Shown: positions 1,518-45,097 of the stretch, one piece after another | How positions within the stretch are numbered: the first letter of the stretch is position 1 | How the letters are laid out: every line of letters begins with the position of its first letter | Translations under genes and position numbers: made by a program | Notes under the pieces: model-generated | What the model was told of the DNA's origin: nothing | Database searches by the model: none | What the model saw: the letters and a program-made list of their open reading frames with translations, nothing else | Sequence record: MH791411.1 | Source of the DNA: Escherichia phage Ecwhy_1 | Length of the DNA stretch: 64,000 nt | Direction: 5' to 3' (one strand)

Positions 1518-1553
1518 AATCAAATGAATGAACGAATTATATGGAGTCCAAAA

Positions 1554-4500: not shown

Positions 4501-7500
4501 TGTGGGATATTGATGGTACTATCGGTGATAGCAGTACTGGTACTATTTTGTCAGGTGAACGCCGTGGTCAATATGACAAATACAAGCGTTTCGGTGTACA
4601 GCCATTTAAAATCACTAAGACTGGCGAGAAAACCAGTACTGGTATTGATATTTGTGAAGTTGAGTATATTGCACCTGAAGTTTTAGGTCTTGTTAGTGGT
4701 AATTTAGATCATCGTGCAGAACCGTGGTCTTATGGTGACATGGGTGACATGGAATTCACTTACATGAACACTGCGATGTTTGCTTATGACCAAATGCTTC
4801 TTCTATACAAAGCAAAACCAGCACAGTTTGCAAACTATTACTGGGATACCCGTAATGATAACCTTAAACCAGTTTATACTGATGGTTCACAGTTCCTTTA
4901 TGGTGAAACTCGTAAGCGTCTAAACTTTGACAGTACTACATTAGTACATGGTGAGAAAAACACCCGTACTATCGGTTATCAAATGTTTGTTAGTGACTAT
5001 TTGATGTATCAGAATAAGAACATTACCACCAAATACGGTGACGTTGTTCGTTCTTCTTATGTCAATGTCGCTCACAAAATTGGTGGCTTTACTAAAGCAG
5101 ACCAATTGACATTCACTGCTAAATCTTTCGGTTTGATTTCACAAGAAAACCAAACTATCGGTCTAGTTCGTTCCAATAACATTCGCGATGAGCAAATGAG
5201 TGCAGTAAAAATTACTTGGAATGGTAGTGCATATCAAATTGATGGTTATGATTTAGTTGGTGCTAAATTTAAATATAAAATTCCAGTTAAAAATGGAAGA
5301 AAAGTAACTCTTAAATTGGAAGACAGAACTGTTGTTCATTACAATGAATGGAAATCTGAAGGTACATTAGAATATGGTAAAATATTCAATACATACCAAG
5401 AAGTTTATACTTTCATTTGTGGATATGGTGAATATCTAAAAGAACATGGCTGGATTTTTGAAGATGTAAATGATAGTGGTACTCAACAAGACTGGACAAC
5501 TATTGCTAAAGACTTTGTTATTTGGAGTCAGAATAATTTAAGTACTGGTGAGTTCATCTCCTGCACTCCAAGTGCAGCTAATGCTAAATTTGGTGCGGAT
5601 TTTGGTTCAGTTCAATCTGTTACACAGAATAGTGGTGGTGTTTGGTCACTACTCGATGATGAAAACCAAGGTATCCGTCAATATGAAATCGAAACTTCGC
5701 GTATCGGTAACGTATTCACAGTGAGAACTACATCTGAATCACAAAAACGTATGGCGTTGATTCGTTTGAGCCTAAGTTCATATGAACACGCAGTTGTTTT
5801 TGATGATAAAACTATCTTTGGTGATTACATTTACCAACCAACTTATGGTGCTATTCAAGAATTGATTAAAATGTATGGTTACATTACTGGGTCATGGACT
5901 GGTCGCCTACAAGCACCTGGTTTCATTATCCTAGAAGCAGGAACTTTACCATCATTTGAAAAATTAGTAACTGATTTTGAATTATATTATAATAGTGAAA
6001 CTCCTGTGAGTGATGTTCAGCTTCAAGAGTTATCAAATCACTTGATTGGCTATCAAACTCGTGATTATCTACAACGTATGATTAGTAGTGATGTTAGTCG
6101 TGTTGATTTCTATAAAGGATTCATTCATGACAAAGGTACTAACCAAGTAATGGAAAAAGTACTACGCGTTTCTAAATCTTACGACACTGATGAATATAAA
6201 GCACTTCAGGAATGGGCATTTAAGATTGGTACTTATGGTAATATCAATGGTAAGAAAAATCTACAATTTAAACTAATCAATGACCAATTTAAACAACAAC
6301 CACAGATGGTTTCGTTTGATGTTAATGCTACATCAAATGGTACTGGTAATGGTATTGTTTATTACGGTGAACAAGGGGTTGACTCACGCTGGATTACTCG
6401 TCCAAATGGTAAGTTTTCATTCCCAATGCGTAGTGGAAGAAGTGAGAATATCCAACTTCCAGACATTGGTCCTGTAACACTAGATGAAATTTCATACGTT
6501 ACTAAAGATTTCAGTACTGCATATAATGATCGTATCAATTATATGAATAACAGTGGTGAAATCCCAGATTCTGTATGGATGTTTAAAGATGGTAATGATT
6601 TGTGGAATATTTTCGAACTAGTAGACACTGAAGTTGAGATGCTCTCTATCGTTCCAATTGAAAATACCGATGTATATGCAGAACAATTCTGTAAAGTAAC
6701 TCTAAGTGATGATATCCCACTAAATGATGGTGATTATTATTACTTTGTTGATGAAACTAACTTTATGCCAGATACATTGACTATAGAAAGTCAATATTAT
6801 ACTGCGGGTAATGACCCTAGAGTTATGGTAGTTCCGTTTGACACTTCAATCACTATTGACTTCACTGATCCTGATACTCGCCCACGCTTGTATCGTTATG
6901 TTTCACGATTCAGTACTGAAGAGATGCGTCAGGAATACATTGACAGAAAATATAGTTTTAAAGCTCCACAAAGTACTTTGTTTGACCGCCCAACCACATA
7001 TGATGAGCGTACTAACATTACTGCGTTGTACCTAAACGTGTTTGACCCAATCAACGGTGTTATTCCTGGTGCAGCGATGCAGAACGTTACCTACACATCT
7101 CCAGTTGACCCAGCACAATACAACAGCAATGGTGAATTGATTCAAGCATGGGGTGCTGATAAAGTTGGTCAGGTTTGGTGGAACACCAGCACTGCTTTCT
7201 ACTTAGATTACACTCGTGCAATCTATGATGCTGATGGTAATGTGGATGTTGATGCAACAAATGAATATAAACGTTATAACTGGGGCAGATTGCTACCGCA
7301 CAGTACTGTTGATGTTCTTGAATGGGTATGTTCACCAGTTGAACCATATAACTGGGACAAATACTGCAAAGACGTTGCTAACAAAAATAAAAACAACACT
7401 ATGTACCTACCAAGCGGAACCGCATTGGAAGATAATTATAGTACGTTCTTAGAATATGATAGCACAACTGATACTTATGTTACAAAATACTATTTCTGGG

Positions 7501-10500
7501 TTCGTGATACAATCTATGTACCACCATTGCATTCCAGAACTAAATCTTGTACTGATATTGCTCGTATTATTAAAGAACCAGCACAGCTTAACATTCCTTG
7601 GTTTGCACCAATCAATGAAAGCTCGTTCATTCTAAGTAATATGCAATTTGAAGTCAACGATGACACAAGTATTTTAACTGTTTCTTATTACATGGATAAT
7701 ACTGAAGTTATTAAACATGACCAGTATCAATTATGTAAAGAAGGTGATAGCTATAACTTCAATCCATCAATCTGGACTTCTATGTGGAATTCTATGATTG
7801 GTCAAGAAACTACTGAATCAGGAACTGTTATTGATTTACTATATCCTTTAGTACCAAACGGTTTAGGTTCTAATAAGACTTGGTTCCAAGATGTAATTGA
7901 AGCTCGTAGAAACTTTGTAGAAAGTGCAAATAACTATTATCGCTCACAGAATATAACAACTAACACTGTTCTAATGGACGAAGTGTTTAATGTTAAAACT
8001 ACTGAAGTTAACCCGAATGAAGTATCATATCGTGTACTAACTTACAATAGTGAATTAGTCATTGCACCTGAAAGTGACAAGTTCAAAGAAAACGACGCAG
8101 TACTAGTAAGTACTAGTGGTGTATTACCTAACCCACTATCAACTAGCTCTGTATATTTTGTGCATATTGATGCTAATGGTTATATTCATCTAATGAATAG
8201 TCCATCAAGTGCTGGTAGTGTGGTTACCATTACATTGGAAAACCGTGGTGAAGGTCAACAGAAAATGATTAAACAATCAGACTATGTTGAAGCACTAGGA
8301 ACTTCATTGGACATGACCCAGTACTGGTCACTAGCAGATTGGTATGATATTGGCTACGATAAAAATACTGCATATACACAAGAATCCAGCCTAGAAGATG
8401 CAAACACTAAGAACTATCAAGTTGGTGACATTATCAGAATTACAGATGTTGATGGCATCTGGACATTGTACATTAAAGCACAATCACGTGATTCAGTTTA
8501 CTGGAAAGCAATTGGTCGTGAAAATAGTACAGTTGAATTGAATGATATGTTATACGCTGACTATACAGTTCGTGATGCTAATGGTTCGTTGAGTAATCGT
8601 GAGATTAACGTTCGTAAAGCACTAGCTTTATTGAAGAACTCATTCGACTTACATCAGAGTGAAATTGTGTTTGATATGGTTAAGTATGTTCACGTAGAAC
8701 AAAGCGTTGTTGATTGGGTATTCAAAACATCTTACATTTATATTGTAGGTTTAGAACAATCATTAGTACAGAACTATTCCAACGACAACTTGATTAATCA
8801 AATCGTTGAGTACTTTGAAGAAGTTAAACCATATAGAACTAAGATTCGTTCCCAGATTGAACAGAAAACTTCAGATGATGATTTAATTAAAGGTTTGTGT
8901 AATGATTTAGATCCTAATGGCTATATATTTGCAGATGGGACTTGGGTTAAAACGGAAAAAGACATTTGGGATTATGAATATGCTCAATTCAATGAGGTAA
9001 CTCAACGTTGGGAGCAAGTTGGTGAATTGCCAAGTGATTTCGTAACACCTAATCGCCGTTTCCAAGAAATTGATGTTATCATGCACTACGACAACACTCA
9101 ATGTAAACCAAATGATAATTTGGCAAGTGTTGATGTATTGGAAGAAGTGAATAAGAAATATCAATCTAATGCACAAGATGTTGTTAGTAATTTTGAATTA
9201 CAACGTTACAAATATACATTCCCAGAATACAGTGATGAAGATTTCGACCTATTGGTTGCTTATCAGATGCAATTGTATTACCCAGAATTGAACGTAACTC
9301 TAGGGATTGCTTACGGTGTTAACCAATGGTATGCAGACCATGCAGATGATTTGGTAGCAACCGCAGAATTCACAGAAACGTTGAATCGTGTATATAAAGA
9401 ATCAACACAAAATGAAATGTTTAATGACGTAAATCATTATGTTCAGTATAACACACTCTCTAACCGTTTGAAATTGTACACAGGTGCAGATGATGAAGTA
9501 ATTCATGATGAGGTTGGATGTGGATTTAGTGGGTTAACCTATGATGATAATCCAAGCACCAGACTACCGTTTGGTTATGCATCCAGTACTGATTATAACT
9601 TTGGTTACTTTGAAGTTAGTAGTGAGTTGTATAAAAAGTATGTTTCTTTAATTAAAGAAAACAATACTACTGCAACTGATGATGAAGTTAGAATTATACT
9701 TGAAGTTGAATATGGTGTTTATTCATATCGCCATGTAGATGAAGATGGAAATCAACGATTCTACAATGACGCAATTCATGTATTGTCTGGTATGCGTGGT
9801 TTGTATGACAAAGATGCTACCGACCATTATGAAAAGGCTGAAGAAATACTAAGTAGAATGCCTATTGATATTCATGCATTTACTATGATGCCACGAAAAT
9901 ATGTTTATGTTAATGTTAATGGTGTATACGAGAGTATCCCAGATGACCAAAGCATTGATGATTTCATGGAAGACAAATTCATAACTGACGGTCAACTAGT
10001 TCAATTGGCAGAAATAAATCTTGATGACTTACCTCTTGATAGAAATAACCCAATGTACAGTGATTATCAGCACATCCTAGATAGCATCACCGATGCTAAG
10101 TACTACGATGATATGAATGCATTTGATAACCTAGCACTTGAATCACAAACTTCCGAGTTAAAATGGGAAGTTGAAGGTGACGAAGTAGATCCGTACATAA
10201 TCGACATTTCTGATATTAACCCATCAGGAAGAAAGATTGGTCAGATTCGCTTCACAGTTGATGGTTATGGATTCAATAGTGTTTCACTAGTTCAATTGAG
10301 AGACAATAGTAGATATAAAACTGAAGGTATGGTTATCATCAACCCTTATAAAACAACAGAAGCAATTGTTAGTATTCCTTCTTACGCTAAGATTGAAAAT
10401 GATATTAGTAAATCATACAGTAAGTATGATGAAAAATACTTCTATAAAATTAAATCAATTGTTAGTGATACAGAAGCTGAAGTAATTGACAATACCCTAT

Positions 10501-11525
10501 CTGATGGTGATAAGGTTATGATATTCACAACTGATGGTGAAGATTATGTGAGATACCAAAACAATGCATGGGAAACCATCTTGAGTGTATCAAAAATCAA
10601 AACTGACACCACACCAACCTTGTACACAGTAAGAAACACTGCGAACGGAACTGTAGAACTACTAGATAGTACTGGAGTTGTACTTCGTTATGATAACATC
10701 ACTAAACAACAACAGAATGAACCAGCAATACCTCTAGCATTGAACATCGTTCGTATTAGAACCTTTGCTGATCCAGAATTCTTGGTTGATGGTGTTAAGT
10801 TGTATGAAACAAATAGAAACTATGCTATCGACGCAATGAACTATGAAGTATTCTACGACACAACACTATACGGTGGTTCTTATAATGATGGAATTACACC
10901 AGATGACGTTGATGTTTGGGTAGTGTCTAACGAGATATTTGAAGTTGATGGTGTTACCATTGATAACGGATATAACTTACCAATTACTGGTGCAGGTGTT
11001 CTTAGTGAGTTAGTGAGAACCAAAATGACTGATAGTGTGGAAATTAACGTGTTCGAGTATGATGTTGGTATTATTCAACCAGTACTGAATACTGAAGGGG
11101 TATGGGAATATGCATATCCACTAGTTAGTGATACATATATTGGTGTAGTTGGTGGAACCGTAACTAACATTACTGCTATCAGTGAAGAAAATACTACTTA
11201 TGTTTCACAACCAGATTCAGTTAGTCCATATAGTGTTACTAATAATGTTCTATCTGGTGCTGGTGCAAGTATGAATGATATTATTTCTCTTGGTTTTGAA
11301 AAAGTTGAAGTACGTTTTGCAAATAACTTACTCCGTGGGGTAATGTATAGTGCAGAACACGACTTTAAAGAGAATGTGACATATTCATTTAATGGCTTGA
11401 ACTTAGGTAAAGTTAATTTACTAAAACGTTATAGTGTTAACAGTTATCCAATCGAACTATCTGTTTACTCCGATAGTTTGCAAATAAGTGGTACTGACAT
11501 TAAAAATCTATTAGAAGTTAAATAA
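1554..11525 (+). CDS. Giant virion-associated protein (~3,323 aa), function unknown; putative tail/baseplate structural protein
   Basis: Uninterrupted 10 kb ORF. ATG at 1554 has GGAG 7 nt upstream; the track's upstream ATG at 1524 lacks an RBS. Sits in the late structural block and ends at a strong bidirectional terminator. Confidence 0.7.
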   Translation: MTNNFKFQPTQMAEAVQKKLFIKRLPEWMQGLEDIQKVSDDVIQQWFNPAENELVDGYIGDMGSPAAAGNIFLHESTVARQLYQLSTAYVSRNDDSSIRSIQFYDDLVGYMNHYGALTENESRLFNGKFYSWTPPINPNKMNNYSSYLWDSKNSYNITTPDYIVMERGAENGNTWSLQNFWYTLGETLEDGTILTEELMQDSRFVRARAPIIEYNKNIELMNYGTKFRGTVDLFSDIIKPEDIVQKDINSGIRIDGIIPQDGMRILFTSIGNNGENNRIYKVYVKRMQDGTRVYGLALDPDEESESRPSGEPQDGDVVLIIKGNEFGNSSMYWDGSHWIQAQSKTSVNVFPQFQLYDRNGVKLNNTTTYPSSTFTGSSLFGFKINYNYATDSVYGYNIELGDYNYYTYENFLQSTRYTYEHLGVEVEIDGLYYYNVIGEGNTMNLETDWVRSTEYSKQYVKQTPQVERTVMFRVFSTVYDMESFKDPVEGMYAYVIEVDRTYQYYKAERETYLDWHVIVGDGVQSVKYNHTFELAQKVLDNSDDIIELVVDGVEIKEYTKTVVNNQVQSITIDSSVDLDEDSVVQIRTYSSTITPNKELGAYEVPINLQNNPYNSNIEYINQGDYTLHFQDIIQKNITSGSADDFNNYEERLAAGLVNNGVGTKIIQNEASMLPLMAHTANEDIDLFESIMFMQAEYFRFINKFNTQMLRLYEEDPSAFLGNSASNIVDAILTAINMGRDSTFPFYYDNVASTAGFIRAFVPPTPQFLGILQAYTPQKATFLTAGSKSSCYNISHTGIISKAYRVINGVDKMDDVVFELENRIFNSIDLTFKDIDYKPVLNSEDLFPTPYFTGTDYSAEEKKTLLLRGYINFTATNGISNSTHDYDANNWRTWNYTGSYYVVDGQRTEIPARGSWRAIYTDQYGTYRPATHPWEMMGFSQRPTWWNQEYEPTAVQVGEREGDVVYVYEALVMNENGDLVPSGLWDIDGTIGDSSTGTILSGERRGQYDKYKRFGVQPFKITKTGEKTSTGIDICEVEYIAPEVLGLVSGNLDHRAEPWSYGDMGDMEFTYMNTAMFAYDQMLLLYKAKPAQFANYYWDTRNDNLKPVYTDGSQFLYGETRKRLNFDSTTLVHGEKNTRTIGYQMFVSDYLMYQNKNITTKYGDVVRSSYVNVAHKIGGFTKADQLTFTAKSFGLISQENQTIGLVRSNNIRDEQMSAVKITWNGSAYQIDGYDLVGAKFKYKIPVKNGRKVTLKLEDRTVVHYNEWKSEGTLEYGKIFNTYQEVYTFICGYGEYLKEHGWIFEDVNDSGTQQDWTTIAKDFVIWSQNNLSTGEFISCTPSAANAKFGADFGSVQSVTQNSGGVWSLLDDENQGIRQYEIETSRIGNVFTVRTTSESQKRMALIRLSLSSYEHAVVFDDKTIFGDYIYQPTYGAIQELIKMYGYITGSWTGRLQAPGFIILEAGTLPSFEKLVTDFELYYNSETPVSDVQLQELSNHLIGYQTRDYLQRMISSDVSRVDFYKGFIHDKGTNQVMEKVLRVSKSYDTDEYKALQEWAFKIGTYGNINGKKNLQFKLINDQFKQQPQMVSFDVNATSNGTGNGIVYYGEQGVDSRWITRPNGKFSFPMRSGRSENIQLPDIGPVTLDEISYVTKDFSTAYNDRINYMNNSGEIPDSVWMFKDGNDLWNIFELVDTEVEMLSIVPIENTDVYAEQFCKVTLSDDIPLNDGDYYYFVDETNFMPDTLTIESQYYTAGNDPRVMVVPFDTSITIDFTDPDTRPRLYRYVSRFSTEEMRQEYIDRKYSFKAPQSTLFDRPTTYDERTNITALYLNVFDPINGVIPGAAMQNVTYTSPVDPAQYNSNGELIQAWGADKVGQVWWNTSTAFYLDYTRAIYDADGNVDVDATNEYKRYNWGRLLPHSTVDVLEWVCSPVEPYNWDKYCKDVANKNKNNTMYLPSGTALEDNYSTFLEYDSTTDTYVTKYYFWVRDTIYVPPLHSRTKSCTDIARIIKEPAQLNIPWFAPINESSFILSNMQFEVNDDTSILTVSYYMDNTEVIKHDQYQLCKEGDSYNFNPSIWTSMWNSMIGQETTESGTVIDLLYPLVPNGLGSNKTWFQDVIEARRNFVESANNYYRSQNITTNTVLMDEVFNVKTTEVNPNEVSYRVLTYNSELVIAPESDKFKENDAVLVSTSGVLPNPLSTSSVYFVHIDANGYIHLMNSPSSAGSVVTITLENRGEGQQKMIKQSDYVEALGTSLDMTQYWSLADWYDIGYDKNTAYTQESSLEDANTKNYQVGDIIRITDVDGIWTLYIKAQSRDSVYWKAIGRENSTVELNDMLYADYTVRDANGSLSNREINVRKALALLKNSFDLHQSEIVFDMVKYVHVEQSVVDWVFKTSYIYIVGLEQSLVQNYSNDNLINQIVEYFEEVKPYRTKIRSQIEQKTSDDDLIKGLCNDLDPNGYIFADGTWVKTEKDIWDYEYAQFNEVTQRWEQVGELPSDFVTPNRRFQEIDVIMHYDNTQCKPNDNLASVDVLEEVNKKYQSNAQDVVSNFELQRYKYTFPEYSDEDFDLLVAYQMQLYYPELNVTLGIAYGVNQWYADHADDLVATAEFTETLNRVYKESTQNEMFNDVNHYVQYNTLSNRLKLYTGADDEVIHDEVGCGFSGLTYDDNPSTRLPFGYASSTDYNFGYFEVSSELYKKYVSLIKENNTTATDDEVRIILEVEYGVYSYRHVDEDGNQRFYNDAIHVLSGMRGLYDKDATDHYEKAEEILSRMPIDIHAFTMMPRKYVYVNVNGVYESIPDDQSIDDFMEDKFITDGQLVQLAEINLDDLPLDRNNPMYSDYQHILDSITDAKYYDDMNAFDNLALESQTSELKWEVEGDEVDPYIIDISDINPSGRKIGQIRFTVDGYGFNSVSLVQLRDNSRYKTEGMVIINPYKTTEAIVSIPSYAKIENDISKSYSKYDEKYFYKIKSIVSDTEAEVIDNTLSDGDKVMIFTTDGEDYVRYQNNAWETILSVSKIKTDTTPTLYTVRNTANGTVELLDSTGVVLRYDNITKQQQNEPAIPLALNIVRIRTFADPEFLVDGVKLYETNRNYAIDAMNYEVFYDTTLYGGSYNDGITPDDVDVWVVSNEIFEVDGVTIDNGYNLPITGAGVLSELVRTKMTDSVEINVFEYDVGIIQPVLNTEGVWEYAYPLVSDTYIGVVGGTVTNITAISEENTTYVSQPDSVSPYSVTNNVLSGAGASMNDIISLGFEKVEVRFANNLLRGVMYSAEHDFKENVTYSFNGLNLGKVNLLKRYSVNSYPIELSVYSDSLQISGTDIKNLLEVK

Positions 11526-11526
11526 C

Positions 11527-11560
11527 AAAAAGGAGAGCAAATGCTCTCCTTTTCTTTTTT
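11527..11560. terminator. Bidirectional rho-independent terminator
   Basis: AAAAAGGAGAGC-AAAT-GCTCTCCTTTTCTTTTTT: perfect 8-bp GC-rich stem flanked by an A-tract and a T-tract; closes the giant ORF (+) and the ClpA-like gene (-). Confidence 0.75.
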
Positions 11561-37676: not shown

Positions 37677-38605
37677 TATACAGCCATTGGTGCTTTGATT
37701 GTTGGCATTGGATCGTAATTAACTAATTTGAAAGAATCCATAGTGAAATCTTCAATATCAGTAATAGTAGGATCTAGCCATAATTCTGGTAATGTACGTG
37801 GTTCACGTTGGAGTTGCTCTTTTACTTGTTCAATATGGTTTTGATAGATATGGCAGTCGCCACCATTCCAAATAAATTCACCAACATCTAACCCTGTAAT
37901 TTGTGCAATCATATGAGTTAGTAGTGAGTAACTACTAATATTAAATGGCACACCAAGGAATAGATCAGCACTACGTTGATGAAGAATACAACTTAGTTTA
38001 CCCTGTACAACACAAAACTGCACAAAGCTATGACAGGGTGGCAAAGTCATAGCATCAAGCTCACCAACGTTCCATGCACTTAGAATGTGACGACGACCGT
38101 ATGGATCAGTATTGATACCTTCAATAACTTGTTTTAGCTGGTCAGTTACACGACGCATAATAACACCATGTGAACCAGTATAATCAATAACTTTATACCC
38201 TTTATCTTTTAGTTCTTGAATTTCTTCAGTACTGGAACTGAATTTATAATCTTCCCATTCACGCCATTGTTTACCATAAACTGGGCCAAGCTCACCATCA
38301 GAATACCCAAGGCTTACACCTTGATTAAGGTAGTTGTCTGTCCAAATTGTTTTCTTTTCTACATCACGTGTCCCGTGTAAAATTTCACACAGACGACGCT
38401 CATCGTGAGAACCTTCAATAAACCATAACAATTCTGAAGTCATTGCTTTCCAAGCCAAACGTTTAGTAGTTACTGCTGGGAAACCTTCTTTTAGGTCAAA
38501 ACGCATTTGTTGTCCGATTAGCTTGATAGTGCCAACACCAGTACGATCAACGCTTTCGACACCTTGATCCAGAATTCTTTGATATAGTTCTTGTAGTTGT
38601 TTCAT
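37676..38605 (-). CDS. thyA: Thymidylate synthase (ThyA/Td type)
   Basis: Active-site LPPCH, GVPFN (Asn indicates dUMP specificity), DRTGVGT, HIYQNH and QLQREPR motifs; carries an insertion relative to E. coli ThyA as in T4/eukaryote-type enzymes. Confidence 0.9.
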   Translation of the reverse strand: MKQLQELYQRILDQGVESVDRTGVGTIKLIGQQMRFDLKEGFPAVTTKRLAWKAMTSELLWFIEGSHDERRLCEILHGTRDVEKKTIWTDNYLNQGVSLGYSDGELGPVYGKQWREWEDYKFSSSTEEIQELKDKGYKVIDYTGSHGVIMRRVTDQLKQVIEGINTDPYGRRHILSAWNVGELDAMTLPPCHSFVQFCVVQGKLSCILHQRSADLFLGVPFNISSYSLLTHMIAQITGLDVGEFIWNGGDCHIYQNHIEQVKEQLQREPRTLPELWLDPTITDIEDFTMDSFKLVNYDPMPTIKAPMAV

Positions 38606-39198
38606 TTTACGTCCTTGAAAAATGTAATAAAGTGTTCCATGTGTTTTTGTGTAGCATTACGTGAACCAATCCCAGTCCAATTACCGTGTGGTGCTGGTAT
38701 TGAGAATGTTTCAGTAAACTCTTTCAGTACTGTATCATAATAAAATACAGAGCGAGTGTTCATATCATAACAATATATTTCTGGATTGTCAACTGAATCC
38801 ATATACATCTGTACGGCCCATGCAGTTCCACCTGAAACTTGCGTAGGTGATGTAATATTTGCAATACAATATACTCTTTTTGTATTAAGTATCTGGTAAC
38901 TATTCCTTGCAAGTAAGTTATATACATACGAACCAGGCTTAGGAACTTTACGGCGTAAAGAGTAACATGCAATGTTTAATTGTTTTAATATTGAACTATC
39001 ACAAAGGATATTGGGTGGAATTTCTAATATAGTATTTTCATCTACGCTGCTTTGGTGACCCTTGAATGAAAAATTTATTACTTCAAATCCATTGTCTTTT
39101 GCATAGATAGAAAAAAGGCGGTCAGCACCTGCTGCCCCGCCACTGAAACATACATTAGATAAACCATTGATTGCTTCATCTAATTCTATTTTATTCAT
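38602..39198 (-). CDS. Rossmann-fold SLOG/DprA-like nucleotide-binding protein (tentative)
   Basis: FSGGAAGADR glycine-rich motif resembles the DprA/SLOG signature; stop overlaps the thyA start (ATGA), so the two are translationally coupled. Confidence 0.45.
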   Translation of the reverse strand: MNKIELDEAINGLSNVCFSGGAAGADRLFSIYAKDNGFEVINFSFKGHQSSVDENTILEIPPNILCDSSILKQLNIACYSLRRKVPKPGSYVYNLLARNSYQILNTKRVYCIANITSPTQVSGGTAWAVQMYMDSVDNPEIYCYDMNTRSVFYYDTVLKEFTETFSIPAPHGNWTGIGSRNATQKHMEHFITFFKDVK

Positions 39199-40153: not shown

Positions 40154-40187
40154 CTGAAAAAAGTAGAGAACGGAATTTTCCGTTCTC
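40154..40187 (-). terminator. Rho-independent terminator after VWA gene
   Basis: GAGAACGG-loop-CCGTTCTC hairpin followed on the minus strand by a U-tract (plus-strand A-run 40157-40162). Confidence 0.55.
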
Positions 40188-40199
40188 ATTATTTAGTAC

Positions 40200-41609
40200 T
40201 TAGCTACGTTGACGCTTTTTGTCAGCTTCATATTCGTAGTGTACAGTTTCGCCAAATGGTGCTTGTTTGTTAGGATTACTGTGGATAACAAACAGTGTCT
40301 TACAGTAATCAGGATCACCCCATGACTGCCACGGCTCACCATCTGTAAACATAATAAGCTGTTTAGGCTTATAGTTGTCATGCTTCATATGAACCCATAC
40401 TGCTTCAAAGTCAGTACCACCACCACCTTTCACTGGATATTCGAGAATCTTACTCTCTTCACCAGTTTTGTAATCTTTCACAGTATAAACTTCAGTATCG
40501 AACGTCATGATACGGATTTTAAATTGTTTAAACTGCTTAGTGATACCCAGTACTTCACTGATGAAATCACGGAGCATATCTTCAGAGATAGAACCGGATG
40601 CATCTAGTGCAATTGCAATATCAATATCATCATCTGGTTTCATACCAGGGAAGATTGGATTCCCGTAGAATGAACCAGAACTACCAAAACCAGCACCCCA
40701 TGAACGACGATTAGGATTTTGATAAGTTGCATCAGACTTCAACCAGCTACGCAGTGTGCGGTGAAGTTTGGAACGCCAGTCAATCTTAGGTTCTTTGAAG
40801 TTGTTAATCATACGTGCGATTTCAGCAGGAGTACCACCTGCACGAGCAGCATTCATCATTGCTGTTTTGAAATCATCCATATAATCACGTTTTTGTTTAT
40901 CACTTGAACCACCTTCTTGACCTTCTTGTGGAACGTCATGCTGGTCGATTGTTGTACCTTTGCCTTTACCATCTTTGATATCACCAAAAGTACCGCGTGA
41001 TTTACCTTCACCCTCACCACTACCAGCCTGTGGATTTCCTTCACCTTCTCCGTCTTGATCCTGCTTATCTTCTTCTTCGAGAATGTTATAAATCTCTTCA
41101 GCAGTCATACCATCGTACTTTTTATCGTACAGCCATTGGCTTTGGATTTTACCAATTTTATCACGAACAAGAATCTGGTTAATTGCATAGTCAGCAGCAC
41201 GGTTATAACGCTGCGGGTCACGCATACCACGACGCAAGAAGTGGTCATATGCACAGTGAAGAATCTCATGACAGATAACTGCAATCAGGTTTTCATCGGT
41301 CAAACCTTCTGTCATTTCTTTAAGTTGTTCTTCAGTTACTTCAGGATGTTTCTCACGAATTGCTTCTTCGTATGCTGACTTTTTGGATTGGTCCTGAATA
41401 CCCATGATGAATTCTACGTTGTAGAATAAATGCTTACCATCTACAGCCAAAGTACGACACCATGTGTTGTTTGCAACTGGACGCAGACGAGAAGCCAGTA
41501 CACCAAAGAATGGGAATGTTAGCATTAAAGATGTGCGAGCTAAGATCAGACGATCTTGACATTCTTTCTGGAGAGCCGGAGTAACATCACTGAAACGTTT
41601 ATCTGACAT
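40200..41609 (-). CDS. VWA-domain protein with N-terminal HExxH metallopeptidase-like domain (MoxR partner, DUF2201-like)
   Basis: HEILHCAYDH motif in the N-terminal half and MIDAS motif DASGS in the C-terminal half; directly downstream of the MoxR-like ATPase. Confidence 0.75.
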   Translation of the reverse strand: MSDKRFSDVTPALQKECQDRLILARTSLMLTFPFFGVLASRLRPVANNTWCRTLAVDGKHLFYNVEFIMGIQDQSKKSAYEEAIREKHPEVTEEQLKEMTEGLTDENLIAVICHEILHCAYDHFLRRGMRDPQRYNRAADYAINQILVRDKIGKIQSQWLYDKKYDGMTAEEIYNILEEEDKQDQDGEGEGNPQAGSGEGEGKSRGTFGDIKDGKGKGTTIDQHDVPQEGQEGGSSDKQKRDYMDDFKTAMMNAARAGGTPAEIARMINNFKEPKIDWRSKLHRTLRSWLKSDATYQNPNRRSWGAGFGSSGSFYGNPIFPGMKPDDDIDIAIALDASGSISEDMLRDFISEVLGITKQFKQFKIRIMTFDTEVYTVKDYKTGEESKILEYPVKGGGGTDFEAVWVHMKHDNYKPKQLIMFTDGEPWQSWGDPDYCKTLFVIHSNPNKQAPFGETVHYEYEADKKRQRS

Positions 41610-41635
41610 TTGTATTTCCTCGTTTAGTTAAGATA

Positions 41636-41661
41636 AAAGAAGGATACCATGTGGTATCCTC
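41636..41661 (-). terminator. Hairpin/terminator between the MoxR and VWA genes
   Basis: GGATACCA-CA-TGGTATCC near-perfect palindrome followed on the minus strand by UUCUUUUAU; may act as an attenuator within the operon. Confidence 0.45.
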
Positions 41662-41684
41662 CTTGTCAACACTCTTTTTAATTA

Positions 41685-43013
41685 TTAACCAAGAGAGCGT
41701 GCTTTACGTACTAGGTCAGAGTACTTCATAACGAAGTCTTTAAACGCTGGTACATCTTTAATCGTAATCGCTACTTTATGAAGCGTGATGGTACGAATCG
41801 CCAGTACTGCCAGTTCTGCTTGAGTTGCAGAGAAGTTATGGTCTAGGAAGGTGATGAAGTTGTTGCACAGCTTACCCCAATCTTCCACTGGTAGACGTTG
41901 TTCTTGCTTCTCATTGTAGAGGTCGATAATTTTGTAAACCAGATTCAGAGTGATGAAGTAGTTCGCGGAAATATCAAGCGAAGCATCAATCTCTTTAATC
42001 TCACCCTGTAGGATGGACATGGTATCTGGTAGTTTAGCTACGTTATCAACATACTCGATGTATTCAGTTGCTACGCCTTCACCAACACGACCTGCAATCA
42101 TCGCACGGAACACTTCTTTATCAATGTTCTTAACTTTCTTCAGATCTTCGTAGCGTGCTACTGCTTCCCATGAACGTGGAGAAGTACCACCACAGTGAGA
42201 AGGATCTTGTGGGCTAAGGGTGTTGAAGTGTTTAGCACCAGTGTTGTTGATGAACGCTACAGTTGCTGGGTTCAAACGCTTACCAATCGCATAATCGTTA
42301 ATCCAATCTTGATGATAAGGAATCATTTCGATGTGGGTCATACGGTCACGCAGTGGTGTAGCTAGAGAGAACGTTACACCGCCATCAGTTTCACGGTTAC
42401 CTGCTGCGAGAATCAGTGCAGTCTTAGGTAGCTTCATCTCACCAACACAACGGTCGAGGATTAGCTGATAAGACGCTGCCTGTACAATCGGCATTGCAGA
42501 GTTGATTTCGTCAAACAGAATAACACCTTTCCAATCTGGAGACAGTTTCAGTACTTTAGGTGCTGCCCACACAACTGCTGTTTCAGCGATGTAATCTTGT
42601 GCACTAGCCAGTTCAGATTCAATCAGTTGCTTACCATCCATATCAAGGAACACTTTCTCTGGAACTGGGATACCGCGAAGGTCACTTGGTTCAATCTGAG
42701 ACAAACGGAAATCGATAAAGTTAGTGTCTTGGTCGATTAGTTTGGCTTCAAACGCTGCCAGTTCACGGCGAAGTTGATCAGCATTTTCAGTATCAGCTTC
42801 GATTTGTTGTTTCATGAACTCAATTTTTGCCACGTTATCTTTACGCAGTGGGTAGTTCTCATCAGCGTATTGACGTGCGATAGCAGATTTACCGATACCA
42901 GGGCTACCCCAAATCATCAGGCTATCTTGAATCATGTCAGCCAGTGCCATTGCTTCTTTAGCTTTCTTAGGAGTCAGTTTTACGTTCAGGATATCGTTGT
43001 TTTGAGTAGACAT
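41685..43013 (-). CDS. MoxR/CbbQ-type AAA+ ATPase
   Basis: Walker A GSPGIGKS, Walker B ILFDEINSA, sensor AAGNRE; RBS AAGGAAA upstream of the ATG. Confidence 0.8.
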   Translation of the reverse strand: MSTQNNDILNVKLTPKKAKEAMALADMIQDSLMIWGSPGIGKSAIARQYADENYPLRKDNVAKIEFMKQQIEADTENADQLRRELAAFEAKLIDQDTNFIDFRLSQIEPSDLRGIPVPEKVFLDMDGKQLIESELASAQDYIAETAVVWAAPKVLKLSPDWKGVILFDEINSAMPIVQAASYQLILDRCVGEMKLPKTALILAAGNRETDGGVTFSLATPLRDRMTHIEMIPYHQDWINDYAIGKRLNPATVAFINNTGAKHFNTLSPQDPSHCGGTSPRSWEAVARYEDLKKVKNIDKEVFRAMIAGRVGEGVATEYIEYVDNVAKLPDTMSILQGEIKEIDASLDISANYFITLNLVYKIIDLYNEKQEQRLPVEDWGKLCNNFITFLDHNFSATQAELAVLAIRTITLHKVAITIKDVPAFKDFVMKYSDLVRKARSLG

Positions 43014-43053: not shown

Positions 43054-43082
43054 ATTATAGCCAATCCGTGGGCAAAAGTAAA
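43054..43082 (-). promoter_or_regulatory. Candidate proximal promoter of MoxR operon
   Basis: Minus strand reads CTTTAC-N17-TATAAT; -10 at 43054-43059. The -35 is weak. Confidence 0.35.
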
Positions 43083-43123
43083 GGAACTGTGTTAAAAGAA
43101 TTTTTAACTTATCAGTTCCTTTG
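43080..43123 (-). promoter_or_regulatory. Long inverted repeat in the MoxR 5' leader
   Basis: Perfect 10-bp arms AAAGGAACTG / CAGTTCCTTT separated by a 24-nt AT-rich, itself partly palindromic, loop. Confidence 0.4.
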
Positions 43124-43184
43124 TTACTTCATGAATCATCCGTGTATTTAAAAAGGCATTTCTCTTTGCCGTCTTGATGTGGTC

Positions 43185-43212
43185 ATTATATCACATCGTT
43201 CAGGCTTGTCAA
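43185..43212 (-). promoter_or_regulatory. Sigma70-type promoter (tandem copy 1)
   Basis: Minus strand reads TTGACA-N16-(TGTGa)TATAATGACCAC; -10 at 43185-43190, -35 at 43207-43212. Confidence 0.6.
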
Positions 43213-43276
43213 CAACTTTTTTATTTCTTTTTCAATCTCACATCTTGTGATTTTGAAAACTTGCTTCGTGGTGGTC

Positions 43277-43304
43277 ATTATAACACATCATTCGGCGTTG
43301 TCAA
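43277..43304 (-). promoter_or_regulatory. Sigma70-type promoter (tandem copy 2)
   Basis: Minus strand reads TTGACA-N16-(TGTGt)TATAATGACCAC; about 45 bp is a direct repeat of copy 1, 90 bp away. Confidence 0.6.
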
Positions 43305-43329
43305 CATCTTTTTTTCTTTATTTTCGAAG

Positions 43330-44104: not shown

Positions 44105-45097
44105 TTATTTGTCCCCTAGAAATTGTTGATATTTCTTCTGGAGACTTTCGAAAATGTCTTCGACTTCTTCATCGCTTTCATCTTCTAGTTCTTCGTTACC
44201 TTCCACTGACTCATCACTCTCATTAACATTGAGTGGGTTGTCACCTAGAGCAGTACCTGGAAACTTAGGTTCAAATTTGTGAACACGGTTCTCGTTACCG
44301 TCATTGTCATAGTACTCTGGTTCAGGACGATTGTCAACATCTTCATCAACGACACGTCTCCAGTAGAACTTGTTACCCTTGGTAATAACAACAAAGTGGT
44401 CACCTTCTACACCATTAGTTTTAGCTTGACCGTCACGAACAGCATCAGCTTCAGTGTTGTAAGGACCAAAATCAGTACTGTCACCTTGTTCTTCATCTTC
44501 AGAGATGGTTAGGTCTGGTAGGAAAGTGTTTTCTTCAACTTTAACTTCAGTATCTGGGTTACCTTCTACTGAATATTCATCTTCTGGTTCGTCTTGAAGA
44601 CCAGCTAGAGATAGCATACGACTGAAATCGAATTCTTCTTCGATGATTTCTTCTTCTTCTTCCTCTTCTTCAACTGATTCTAGTTGAGGTTGACCGGAAA
44701 GATCTAAAGAAAACTCTTCTTCATCTGCAACACCAGGCTCTTCGAACTCTGCATCCATACTTACTTCTTCAGAATCACCACCAAAATCACCAGCTTCAGC
44801 AGATAGTGAGTCAGCAGCTACTTCCAATGGGTCTTCAACTGGTGCATCAATCGCACCATCCATTGTACCACCAACTTCTTCTTCAGCACCCGCACCAATG
44901 GAATCCATGTCGAGTGGAGCGATTGGTGGTAGAGAAGGGGTCATAGACCCCATAGAAGGAACTGGAGCAGCAACAGGAGAAGCTTGACGCTCTGCTTGAC
45001 CAGCTAATGCAAGCATACGAGATAGTGTTTCTAGATCTTCAGATTCTAGACCTGCGATATCGATTTTAACTTGTGCTTCATTAATTTTTTTAGCCAT
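44105..45097 (-). CDS. Highly acidic protein with poly-Glu tract
   Basis: Contains EEEEEEEEIIEEEFDF and long Asp/Glu-rich segments; RBS AAGGA. Confidence 0.6.
   Translation of the reverse strand: MAKKINEAQVKIDIAGLESEDLETLSRMLALAGQAERQASPVAAPVPSMGSMTPSLPPIAPLDMDSIGAGAEEEVGGTMDGAIDAPVEDPLEVAADSLSAEAGDFGGDSEEVSMDAEFEEPGVADEEEFSLDLSGQPQLESVEEEEEEEEIIEEEFDFSRMLSLAGLQDEPEDEYSVEGNPDTEVKVEENTFLPDLTISEDEEQGDSTDFGPYNTEADAVRDGQAKTNGVEGDHFVVITKGNKFYWRRVVDEDVDNRPEPEYYDNDGNENRVHKFEPKFPGTALGDNPLNVNESDESVEGNEELEDESDEEVEDIFESLQKKYQQFLGDK

What the first reader, a model, noticed from the sequence alone, without database searches (positions are those of the whole stretch)
40200..43013. MoxR-type AAA+ ATPase paired with a VWA/HExxH metallopeptidase-like protein
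The 442-aa ATPase (GSPGIGKS Walker A, DEINSA Walker B) is followed by a 469-aa protein that combines an N-terminal HEILHCAYDH zinc-peptidase-like motif with a C-terminal VWA MIDAS motif (DASGS). MoxR-VWA pairs act as chaperone/remodelling systems in bacteria. Their role in a phage is unknown; possibilities include virion maturation, metal insertion, or interference with host complexes. The pair sits behind an unusually elaborate promoter region.
Basis: partly seen in the sequence, partly recalled or inferred. Interest (0 to 1): 0.7.

Follow-up and report, generated by a model that had tools for sequence, protein, structure and literature searches.

The report
Phage MoxR ATPase with VWA-protease partner
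A giant E. coli phage carries a strongly promoted two-gene unit, a ring-forming ATPase plus a partner that joins a protein-gripping domain to a zinc protease; the pair is already described in the literature, and a recent preprint suggests it helps phages overcome bacterial immunity rather than build virus particles.

Summary
Two minus-strand genes (41685-43013, 442 aa; 40200-41609, 469 aa) encode an AAA+ ATPase whose model best matches the MoxR proteins NorQ and CbbQ, and a DUF2201_N zincin (HExxHxxxxH) fused to a VWA domain with a complete MIDAS site. All catalytic residues are invariant across very distant relatives.

The window is a Rak2/121Q-like jumbo coliphage, 99.8% identical to sequenced phages. 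The pair is already published. It is N4 gp24/gp25, two of 14 N4-like core genes, and Iyer et al. 2021 described it in jumbo phages as a proposed virion-assembly chaperone-protease.

Three results point elsewhere:
- The pair forms its own operon, with two perfect tandem sigma-70 promoters, a conserved leader hairpin, a terminator-like hairpin between the genes, and a terminator. It lacks the late-type motif of the flanking structural genes.
- Homologous modules sit on conjugative plasmids beside PRTRC, T4SS and toxin genes.
- In a 2025 preprint, the rV5-like orthologue (Bas54 MoxR ATPase) is dispensable on K-12 but required against defence system DS-28. Its VWA-protease partner is also depleted.

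Most likely this is an ATP-driven, MIDAS-targeted protease acting on a host protein. The substrate is unknown. The finding is already known and of moderate interest.

The parts
43277..43304 (-). Promoter P1: perfect sigma-70 consensus TTGACA-N16-TATAAT with extended -10 TG, A/T-rich upstream
   Evidence: conserved as 11/12 in 121Q
43185..43212 (-). Promoter P2: second perfect sigma-70 consensus, 92 bp downstream of P1; the best conserved of the two
   Evidence: perfect in 121Q and in a Klebsiella Alcyoneusvirus
43179..43325 (.). Two 55-nt direct repeats (43179-43233, 43271-43325; 82% identical), each carrying one of the two promoters
43080..43122 (-). Leader hairpin (10-bp stem, 23-nt loop) followed by a U-rich tract; possible attenuator or mRNA-stabilising element
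   Evidence: leader folds at z -3.4; stem kept in the Klebsiella phage through a matched deletion on both arms; analogous hairpin in the Erwinia phage leader
43054..43082 (-). Weaker promoter-like site P3 (TTTACT-N17-TATAAT), overlapping the 3' side of the leader hairpin
   Evidence: conserved in 121Q
41685..43013 (-). MoxR-class AAA+ ATPase, 442 aa, 49.6 kDa. Motifs: Walker A 42885-42908, Walker B 42498-42515, sensor-1 N206, Arg finger R224, sensor-2 R280 (SPRSW). Helical-hairpin insert at aa 54-95 is absent from the other lineages aligned; extra all-helical C-terminal domain at about aa 295-442
41637..41664 (-). Intercistronic terminator-like hairpin (12-bp stem plus UUUUAUCUU) between the ATPase and VWA genes; probably lowers expression of the partner
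   Evidence: a hairpin plus U-run of unrelated sequence sits at the same place in the Erwinia phage and a megaphage, and a related one in the 121Q and Klebsiella phages
40200..41609 (-). Zincin-VWA protein, 469 aa, 53.5 kDa. N-terminal DUF2201_N metallopeptidase-like domain (HEILHCAYDH at 41241-41270). Acidic Gly-rich disordered linker at aa 190-232. Conserved but disordered NPNRRSW segment at 40695-40718. C-terminal VWA with MIDAS DASGS at 40590-40604, plus T399 and D423
40166..40187 (-). Intrinsic terminator-like hairpin directly after the VWA stop codon; end of the two-gene unit
   Evidence: equivalent terminators in the 121Q, Klebsiella and Erwinia phages

Best explanation
The two genes form one self-contained operon that encodes a two-part protein-remodelling protease. 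The ATPase is a MoxR-class AAA+ protein and presumably forms a hexameric ring. The partner is its adaptor. Its VWA domain has a complete metal-ion-dependent adhesion site (MIDAS), which would grip an acidic residue of a target protein, and it docks on the ring. A long flexible linker joins the VWA domain to a small zinc protease domain with an intact HExxH...H site. ATP hydrolysis would pull or twist on the adaptor and its bound target so that the zincin can cut or dismantle it.

The operon is driven by two consensus host-type promoters, so it should be made early and abundantly, before and independently of the late structural genes around it. A terminator-like hairpin between the genes should keep the adaptor scarcer than the ring subunit.

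The most likely biological role is to neutralise a host protein, specifically a bacterial immune system, when the phage enters a new cell. The same module on conjugative plasmids would serve the same purpose.

What is shown: the domain architecture, residue conservation, operon signals, distribution, and the published phenotype of a distant orthologue. What is inferred: hexamer formation, docking, proteolysis, expression timing, stoichiometry, and transfer of the anti-defence role to this jumbo phage.
For: Architecture:
- DUF2201_N plus DUF2201/VWA; VWA fold.
- The ATPase model (pLDDT 87) best matches NorQ and CbbQ.

Active sites are under selection. H114, E115, H118, H123 and MIDAS D336, S338, S340, T399, D423 are invariant across jumbo, PA5oct-like, rV5-like, N4-like, megaphage, Burkholderiales/Rhodovastum plasmid and Synechocystis pSYSA homologues. 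So are the ATPase residues K42, D168, N206, R224 and R280.

Operon signals:
- Two of the window's three perfect sigma-70 promoters lie upstream (0.12 expected by chance), and they are conserved in 121Q and in a Klebsiella phage.
- The late-type motif [AC]TAAATA is enriched about 24-fold upstream of ORFs and precedes the flanking structural genes, but not this operon.
- N4 gp24/gp25 are middle genes (PMC4193335).
- An intercistronic hairpin plus U-run recurs in five phages; in the two most distant of them its sequence is unrelated.

Mobile-element distribution:
- 724 phage records of several families carry the VWA gene.
- 82 plasmids carry it, 30 of them conjugative, with the module next to PRTRC, T4SS, toprim, zeta-toxin and orphan methylase genes. 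The plasmid ATPases are homologous to the phage ATPase.

Experiment, from bioRxiv 10.1101/2025.11.20.689424:
- In the rV5-like phage Bas54 (MaxBurger), bas54_0063 'MoxR ATPase' and bas54_0055 'metallopeptidase' belong to the same PHROG families as the window genes (BLASTP 8e-33 and 2e-53).
- Both tolerate transposons at about 94% of TA sites on K-12, so both are non-essential there.
- On a clinical strain the ATPase mutants vanish (log2FC -7.23, adj. p 0) and the metallopeptidase mutants are depleted (log2FC -2.20, adj. p 0.009), while the neighbouring genes are unchanged.
- The ATPase knockout is specifically sensitive to the cloned defence system DS-28.

Mechanistic precedent: NorD's VWA finger enters the NorQ pore, and NorQ remodels a NorD linker (PMC13036017).
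Against: - The phenotype comes from a phage whose proteins are only 24-29% identical to these, where the two genes are 3.6 kb apart on opposite strands. It is a preprint.
- The authors name the ATPase and an unrelated 99-aa gene as the anti-DS-28 factors, not the metallopeptidase. The metallopeptidase's depletion is weaker and appears only in a supplementary table whose sheet title (CFE303) disagrees with its command line (311).
- No PADLOC or other anti-defence annotation exists for the pair.
- In the 121Q-like phage phAPEC6 the orthologous ATPase (gp265c) was found in virion preparations by mass spectrometry, with 6 peptides and 19% coverage. That fits a particle-associated role, although thymidylate synthase was detected too.
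- The operon lies between structural genes.
- Expression timing is inferred from promoter motifs, not measured.
- No proteolytic activity, substrate or complex has been shown for any family member.
- The N-terminal zincin fold could not be placed by fold search.
Confidence: 0.5

Rival explanations
1. Virion-assembly chaperone with a processing protease, as proposed by Iyer et al. 2021. The ring and its VWA co-chaperone would help fold or assemble structural proteins of the large particle, and the zincin would trim them, by analogy with the MoxR-VWA pair p618/p892 that drives tail growth in Acidianus two-tailed virus.
For: - Published proposal for this architecture in group 2.2 jumbo phages (PMC7824862).
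- The operon lies between tail-fibre/structural genes and virion proteins.
- The orthologous ATPase was detected in purified phAPEC6 virions.
Against: - Both Bas54 orthologues are non-essential on K-12, with about 94% of TA sites hit. That is unexpected for a core assembly factor.
- The operon has host-consensus promoters and lacks the late-type motif of its structural neighbours.
- N4 gp24/gp25 are middle genes in the replication region.
- Homologous modules occur on conjugative plasmids, which build no virions.
- These phages already have a prohead protease.
- Thymidylate synthase was also 'detected in virions' in phAPEC6, which suggests carry-over of abundant proteins.
Confidence: 0.15
2. 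A function on incoming or replicating DNA. The machine would strip or cleave proteins bound to the element's DNA, such as host nucleoid or blocking proteins or covalently attached proteins, so that replication can start. Phages and plasmids would both need this on entering a cell.
For: - In N4-like phages the pair sits among dCTP deaminase, helicase and DNA polymerase genes.
- Here it is three genes from a DprA/SLOG-like gene and thymidylate synthase.
- On plasmids it lies beside PRTRC, DUF3991-toprim and ParB genes.
- In the Bas54 screen a DNA helicase was conditionally essential in the same comparison.
- Weak SprT-like Pfam hits occur in 2 of 50 homologues.
Against: - No DNA-binding domain was detected in either protein.
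- The neighbourhood varies between lineages.
- The genes are dispensable on K-12.
- This reading overlaps with, rather than excludes, an anti-defence role.
Confidence: 0.15
3. Metal-cofactor insertion or enzyme activation, the classical MoxR-VWA job seen in NorQ/NorD, CbbQ/CbbO, CoxD/CoxE and CobS/CobT. The target would be a phage or host metalloenzyme, for example in nucleotide metabolism.
For: - The best structural matches are NorQ and CbbQ.
- 7 of 50 homologues give weak VWA_CoxE hits.
- N4 gp24 weakly hits the CobS-type 'porphyrin biosynthesis' PHROG at 7e-07.
- Nucleotide-metabolism genes lie nearby.
Against: - There are no CobS_N, CobT or CobT_C domains and no pathway context.
- The invariant catalytic glutamate of HExxH points to hydrolysis, not metal delivery.
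- No conserved client enzyme is shared by all carriers.
- The published phenotype is defence-specific.
Confidence: 0.08

Closest known systems
Coliphage N4 gp24 / gp25 (and 'N4 gp24-like / gp25-like' proteins of Schitoviridae)
   Same: Same PHROG families, phrog_1297 and phrog_1314, at E 1e-135 or better. Same gene order, with the ATPase first and then the zincin-VWA gene. Same invariant HExxH...H, MIDAS and AAA+ residues. They are two of the 14 core genes of N4-like phages and have no assigned function (PMC4193335).
   Different: 25-30% identity. The N4 ATPase lacks the helical-hairpin insert (aa 54-95) and the second insert seen here, and N4 gp25 lacks the insert at aa 71-100. In N4 the genes are middle genes read by the phage RNA polymerase II. 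Here they have host sigma-70 consensus promoters.
Bas54 (Escherichia phage MaxBurger, rV5-like) bas54_0063 MoxR ATPase and bas54_0055 putative metallopeptidase
   Same: Same two families. This is the only member with a phenotype: non-essential on K-12, but the ATPase is required against defence system DS-28 and the metallopeptidase is also depleted on the clinical strain.
   Different: 24% and 29% identity. The two genes are separated by seven others and lie on opposite strands. The VWA loop reads STWGT instead of GGGGT. Whether the jumbo-phage pair meets the same host target is untested.
NorQ/NorD and CbbQ/CbbO (bacterial MoxR-VWA remodelling pairs)
   Different: 11-15% identity. The phage ATPase has an extra C-terminal helical domain of about 150 aa. 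The bacterial partners have no peptidase domain, and their clients are metabolic enzymes into which metal is inserted or from which inhibitors are released.
Acidianus two-tailed virus p618 (MoxR) / p892 (VWA)
   Same: A viral MoxR-VWA pair, cited as the analogue by Iyer et al. 2021.
   Different: It has no peptidase domain, comes from an archaeal virus, and acts in extracellular tail growth. Homology to the present proteins was not tested here.
ATPase - hypothetical - 'VWA-like domain' modules of Burkholderiales/Rhodovastum plasmids, and Synechocystis pSYSA Sll7029/Sll7028
   Same: Same DUF2201_N plus DUF2201 architecture and the same invariant residues. The ATPases are homologous. They are carried on mobile elements.
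   Different: 22-32% identity. The Burkholderiales and Rhodovastum plasmid version has a conserved middle gene of about 300 aa with no detectable phage counterpart. In two of these plasmid ATPases (B. cenocepacia and Simplicispira) the Walker B motif reads DD instead of DE. Their function is unknown.

Membership tests
MoxR-class AAA+ ATPases | AAA+ catalytic motifs: Walker A GxxGxGKS, Walker B hhhhDE, sensor-1 Asn, Arg finger, sensor-2 Arg in a (S/T)PR motif | tested here: met
   GSPGIGKS, ILFDEINS, AAGN(206), R224 and SPR(280)SW are all present. K42, D168, N206, R224 and R280 are invariant across ten distant homologues.
MoxR-class AAA+ ATPases | Sequence membership: Pfam AAA_3 (PF07726) or AAA_5 (PF07728) above the gathering score | tested here: not met
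   AAA_3 scores 17.9 bits against a cut-off of 27, and AAA_5 scores 15.5 against 22. Only the generic AAA family just passes, at 21.5 against 21.2. Homologues at 32-34% identity do carry precomputed AAA_3/AAA_5 hits.
MoxR-class AAA+ ATPases | Fold closest to solved MoxR members | tested here: met
   The top Foldseek PDB hits are NorQ (9qh4, 9qh8, 9qhd) and CbbQ (6l1q), with TM about 0.6 on the target. They rank above or among the clamp loaders, dynein and McrB.
MoxR-class AAA+ ATPases | Helix-2 insert and pre-sensor-1 beta-hairpin | tested here: inconclusive
   The AF2 model has strands 115-124 and 141-150 after beta-2, and a short hairpin at 188-194 before the sensor-1 strand. No residue-level superposition was done.
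MoxR-class AAA+ ATPases | Encoded next to a VWA-domain partner | tested here: met
   The VWA gene starts 75 nt downstream in the same operon. The pairing is conserved in other phage lineages and on plasmids.
MoxR-class AAA+ ATPases | Hexamer formation and ATPase activity | not testable with these tools
   Needs purified protein.
DUF2201_N + DUF2201 proteins (Pfam PF13203 + PF09967; 'predicted metal-dependent peptidase', N4 gp25-like) | Both Pfam domains above the gathering score, in N-to-C order | tested here: met
   DUF2201_N scores 125.8 bits (cut-off 23.2) and DUF2201 scores 77.8 bits (cut-off 26.4). All 50 aligned homologues hit both.
VWA domains with a functional MIDAS | DxSxS ... T ... 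D metal-binding residues on a VWA (Rossmann-like) fold | tested here: met
Zincin-like metallopeptidases | HExxH on the active-site helix plus a third zinc ligand | tested here: met
   H114-E115-x-x-H118 and H123 are invariant across all lineages aligned. The motif lies on predicted helix 105-124 after a three-stranded sheet. Recurrent weak hits to Peptidase_M48, PhageMetallopep and DUF5700 appear among the homologues.
Zincin-like metallopeptidases | Zincin fold confirmed against solved structures; proteolytic activity | tested here: inconclusive
   Both PDB fold searches list only VWA matches for the two-domain model. Activity is not testable here.
Aerobic cobaltochelatase CobS/CobT | CobS_N and CobT/CobT_C domains; cobalamin pathway neighbours | tested here: not met
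   No such Pfam or NCBIfam hits were found at E <= 0.1. The neighbours are structural, DprA/SLOG-like and thymidylate synthase genes.
Phage anti-defence genes (as Bas54 bas54_0063) | Homology to the experimentally implicated gene | tested here: met
   Same PHROG (phrog_1297, E 2e-110 for Bas54 against 3e-105 here). BLASTP gives 8e-33 over 383 aa.
Phage anti-defence genes (as Bas54 bas54_0063) | Dispensable on a naive host but required on a host that carries a given defence system | not testable with these tools
   Shown only for Bas54, in a preprint. There are no data for Rak2/121Q-like phages.

The most novel reading that the evidence does not exclude
The pair is a new mechanistic class of counter-defence shared by virulent phages and conjugative plasmids. 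It would be an ATP-driven ring whose MIDAS-bearing adaptor seizes a bacterial immune protein (DS-28 or others) and whose fused zincin cleaves it. In effect this is a mobile-element-encoded, target-specific AAA+ protease, with the intercistronic terminator setting the ring-to-adaptor ratio.
Probability: 0.3. Interest if true: 0.75.

Novelty: already known. Interest (0 to 1): 0.35.

Why it matters
The family is one of the most widespread unexplained gene pairs in large virulent phages. It is found in 724 phage records, is core in N4-like phages, and is present in rV5-like, Rak2-like, PA5oct-like and mega-phages. It is also present on conjugative plasmids.

If it is an energy-dependent protease aimed at host immunity, it would add a new mechanism to the anti-defence repertoire. 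It would also affect host-range prediction for therapeutic phages, since the rV5-like, N4-like and jumbo coliphages that carry the pair are candidate therapy phages. It would give MoxR-VWA biology a tractable system with a clear plating phenotype. And it would correct a widely propagated mis-annotation ('HNH endonuclease').

The sequence is 99.8-100% identical to deposited phages, and the architecture has been published.

Tried and rejected
- Sequence searches of both proteins and of their family profiles against PDB gave only P-loop or marginal integrin hits.
- PADLOC and NCBIfam gave nothing meaningful.
- Two fold searches with the zincin-VWA model returned VWA domains only, so the N-terminal fold stays unplaced.
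- I looked for a conserved third component. The plasmid middle gene of about 300 aa is conserved among plasmids but has no Pfam hit. It is unrelated to the rV5-like neighbour annotated 'anti-sigma factor' and to the window's 217-aa downstream protein. That rV5-like neighbour is also not an ATPase homologue.
- The second Bas54 anti-DS-28 gene (bas54_0140) has no homologue in the window.
- Rfam found no family in or around the operon.
- A possible 11-codon leader ORF is not conserved in the Klebsiella phage, by reading of the alignment.
- The T4 late promoter TATAAATA and the CBB-type TGAAAC -35 promoter are both absent from the window.
- The neighbouring genes belong to lineage-specific families that give no functional link.
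- The PA5oct, RaK2 and CBB papers and the plasmid leading-region and Pseudomonas island papers do not mention the pair.
- CobS/CobT and Mg-chelatase readings were rejected on domain content.
Full report
**1. What is there**

The region holds two minus-strand ORFs. One is a 442-aa protein at 41685..43013. The other is a 469-aa protein at 40200..41609, 75 nt downstream.

The window is a Rak2/121Q-like jumbo coliphage. The 3.2-kb region is 99.8% identical to Escherichia phages EC.P1, fEgEco12 and WPEC5, and 87% identical to 121Q, PBECO4 and phAPEC6. GenBank annotations of the second gene are inconsistent. They include 'HNH endonuclease', 'Zn-dependent hydrolase', 'VWA domain-containing protein' and 'N4 gp25-like'. 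The 'HNH endonuclease' label comes from the name attached to phrog_1314 and has no support in the domain content.

**2. Domain identification**

The 469-aa protein hits Pfam DUF2201_N ('putative metallopeptidase', E 3e-36) and DUF2201 ('VWA-like', 1e-21), with VWA itself just under threshold.

- An AlphaFold2 model built on 50 homologues has mean pLDDT 76.6. It shows an N-terminal helix/three-strand-sheet domain with the HExxH motif on helix 105-124. Two disordered stretches follow, at 190-232 (acidic, Gly-rich, pI 4.4) and at 292-326. The C-terminal domain is alpha/beta.
- Neither search reports a match for the N-terminal domain.
- Weak but recurrent Pfam hits among the homologues tie that domain to zincins: Peptidase_M48 in 25 of 50, PhageMetallopep in 21 and DUF5700 in 14.

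The 442-aa protein hits phrog_1297 'ATPase' at 3e-105, but only marginally hits Pfam AAA families. AAA_3 and AAA_5 are both below their cut-offs.

- Its model is confident (pLDDT 87) and its best PDB matches are the MoxR proteins NorQ and CbbQ.
- Only the first 260 or so residues align with them. The remainder is an all-helical C-terminal domain.
- Compared with N4-like, rV5-like and PA5oct-like relatives, this protein carries a helical-hairpin insert at residues 54-95 and a second insert near 120-140.

**3. Conservation**

In alignments that span jumbo, PA5oct-like, rV5-like and N4-like phages, a roughly 480-kb megaphage contig, Burkholderia, Simplicispira and Rhodovastum plasmids, and Synechocystis pSYSA (23-45% identity), the following residues are invariant.

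- In the partner: H114, E115, H118, H123, R126, N136, D140 and N144, plus the full MIDAS set D336, S338, S340, T399 and D423.
- In the ATPase: K42, the PxDxxGxP motif after beta-2, D168, N206, R224, R280 and W282.

Retention of the catalytic glutamate and of every MIDAS ligand argues that both the peptidase and the adhesion site are functional. A segment predicted to be disordered but conserved (P299, R301/R302, around NPNRRSW) is a candidate contact with the ATPase. This is my inference.

**4. The operon**

The 316-bp region upstream of the ATPase contains two perfect sigma-70 consensus promoters with extended -10 TG. They lie 92 bp apart, each inside a 55-nt direct repeat. Only three such sites exist in the 64-kb window, against 0.12 expected.

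- A 10-bp-stem hairpin with a U-rich tail (43080-43122) and a weaker promoter follow. The leader folds better than shuffled controls (z -3.4).
- The arrangement is conserved in 121Q (12/12 and 11/12 promoter matches). In a Klebsiella Alcyoneusvirus it is largely conserved, and the hairpin stem is kept through a matched deletion on both arms.
- An Erwinia Eneladusvirus instead has a TGAAAC-type -35 element. The CBB paper links that class to DNA-synthesis genes (PMC5259590).
- Between the two genes sits a 12-bp hairpin followed by UUUUAUCUU (41637-41664). A hairpin plus U-run occupies the same position in 121Q, the Klebsiella phage, the Erwinia phage and the megaphage. In the last two its sequence is unrelated.
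- A terminator follows the VWA stop codon (40166-40187).
- The motif [AC]TAAATA is about 24-fold enriched upstream of ORFs in the window and precedes the flanking structural genes, but it is absent upstream of the ATPase.

I infer that this is an autonomous unit, transcribed by unmodified host RNA polymerase. That makes it probably early and strong, with the adaptor made in lower amount than the ring subunit. This would fit the one-adaptor-per-hexamer arrangement seen for NorQ-NorD (PMC13036017). None of this expression behaviour has been measured.

**5. Distribution**

The zincin-VWA protein has 2,779 database homologues at E < 1e-5 among the candidates scored. tblastn finds it in 724 phage records. 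These include Rak2-like jumbo phages, Wroclawvirus/PA5oct-like phages, Vequintavirinae, Schitoviridae and Pectobacterium phiTE-like phages. An ATPase gene of the same family lies next to it or a few genes away in every lineage examined; in rV5-like phages it is 3.6 kb away on the opposite strand.

It also occurs on 82 plasmids, 30 of them typed as conjugative. There the order is ATPase, then a conserved gene of about 300 aa, then the VWA-like gene. This block sits beside PRTRC genes and a type IV secretion/TraI/TraD block, or beside DUF3991-toprim, zeta-toxin, ParB, DUF4942 and an orphan cytosine methylase. On pSYSA it lies among toxin-antitoxin genes. The plasmid ATPases are true homologues.

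None of the papers I searched or opened mentions this phage-plasmid link. A particle-assembly role does not explain it.

**6. What the literature already says**

- N4 gp24 ('unknown') and gp25 ('vWFA domain') are two of the 14 core genes of N4-like phages, and they are middle genes (PMC4193335).
[quoted passage not shown] They propose virion assembly with peptidolytic processing, by analogy with ATV.
- The phAPEC6 record annotates the orthologues as 'MoxR ATPase' and 'N4 gp25-like protein'. Its virion mass spectrometry lists the ATPase gp265c (49.52 kDa, 6 peptides, 19% coverage) but not the partner. It also lists thymidylate synthase, which suggests that abundant non-structural proteins were carried over.

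**7. The first phenotype**

The HIDEN-SEQ preprint (bioRxiv 10.1101/2025.11.20.689424) mapped gene essentiality in the rV5-like phage Bas54. I identified Bas54 as Escherichia phage MaxBurger, MZ501093.1.

- bas54_0063 ('MoxR ATPase') and bas54_0055 ('putative metallopeptidase') fall in the same PHROGs as the window genes. BLASTP gives 8e-33 and 2e-53.
- On K-12 both are non-essential, with 60 of 64 and 81 of 86 TA sites hit.
- In the resampling table that compares K-12 with a clinical isolate, ATPase insertions disappear (mean 148.7 to 0.0, log2FC -7.23, adj. p 0). Metallopeptidase insertions fall (219.7 to 47.2, log2FC -2.20, adj. p 0.009). Adjacent genes are unchanged.
- That sheet is headed CFE303, but its command line uses the '311' data.
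- The main text states that knockouts of bas54_0063 and of an unrelated 99-aa gene, bas54_0140, are specifically sensitive to the cloned two-gene system DS-28 from E. coli CFE311.
- bas54_0140 has no homologue in the window.

**8. Synthesis**

The molecular identity is secure: a MoxR-class ring plus a MIDAS adaptor fused to a zincin.

For the biological role, four independent lines favour action on a host target at or soon after entry, most plausibly an immune system:
- host-type promoters rather than the late motif;
- middle-gene status in N4;
- presence on conjugative plasmids next to establishment-type genes;
- dispensability on K-12 combined with a defence-specific requirement in Bas54.

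Two lines favour the published assembly idea: the position among structural genes, and detection of the ATPase in one virion preparation. I put the anti-defence/host-target reading at about 0.5, assembly at 0.15, a DNA-establishment function at 0.15, and metal insertion below 0.1. The substrate, the proteolytic step and the transfer of the phenotype across 24-29% identity all remain to be shown.

**9. Verdict**

The feature is already known, both as sequence and as a described architecture. Its function is an open question that is now experimentally approachable.

The points added here:
- the conserved operon design, with tandem consensus promoters, a leader hairpin and an intercistronic terminator;
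- the phage-plasmid distribution;
- the observation that the partner protease is co-depleted with the ATPase in the published screen.

Noticed in passing
whole window; examples at 1511, 19599, 23892, 28974, 35638 (+) and 47240, 47762, 50695, 51472, 54538, 56408 (-): The T4 late-promoter octamer TATAAATA is completely absent from the 64 kb (7.0 +/- 2.8 expected). The shorter motif [AC]TAAATA is about 24-fold enriched just upstream of ORFs and precedes the structural genes, so it is probably this phage's late promoter core.
   Followed up: partly
window 13886-13913 (-): This is the only other perfect sigma-70 consensus promoter in the window. It lies just upstream of the 770-aa ORF 11559..13871 (-).
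   Followed up: no
window 1524-11525 (+): A giant 3333-aa ORF preceded by the late-type motif. phAPEC6 virion proteomics lists a 381.9-kDa hypothetical protein (gp245) that may be its orthologue.
   Followed up: no
window 44105-45097 (-): A 330-aa, extremely acidic (long Glu/Asp runs) virion structural protein (phrog_15988), two genes upstream of the promoter region. MIDAS sites bind acidic side chains, but no link was tested.
   Followed up: no
window 38602-39198 (-): A DprA/SLOG-like protein (phrog_768; weak YAcAr Pfam hit) sits directly upstream of thymidylate synthase (the two ORFs overlap by 4 nt) and three genes downstream of the pair.
   Followed up: no
L011 8055-8984, L013 7090-8007, L014 7063-7962 (plasmids): The plasmid version of the module has a conserved middle gene of about 300 aa. 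It is 33% identical between Burkholderia and Rhodovastum, has no Pfam hit, and has no detectable phage counterpart.
   Followed up: partly
phage records MG0656xx ('Campylobacter phage C5, C12, A142 ...'); plasmid record CP057073: Sixteen records labelled Campylobacter phage are 97-99% identical to E. coli rV5-like phages over the MoxR gene. A 137.6-kb E. coli 'plasmid' matches like an rV5-like phage genome. These are probably mislabelled hosts or replicon types.
   Followed up: no
annotation of the 40200-41609 orthologues in GenBank: The PHROG name 'HNH endonuclease' for phrog_1314 is propagated to dozens of phage records for a protein that has no HNH domain. The labels 'anti-sigma factor' and 'T4-gp25-like' also occur.
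   Followed up: yes
HIDEN-SEQ preprint, supplementary Data S6: The sheet is titled 'resampling_K-12_vs_CFE303', but the recorded command line and data files are for strain 311. The strain behind the table that shows co-depletion of the ATPase and the metallopeptidase is therefore ambiguous.
   Followed up: no
L016 13... / Bas54 bas54_0068: In the same Bas54 comparison a DNA helicase next to rIIA/rIIB is also conditionally essential (log2FC -6.3). It is the counterpart of the helicase that follows gp25-like in LUZ7 and lies nearby in N4.
   Followed up: no
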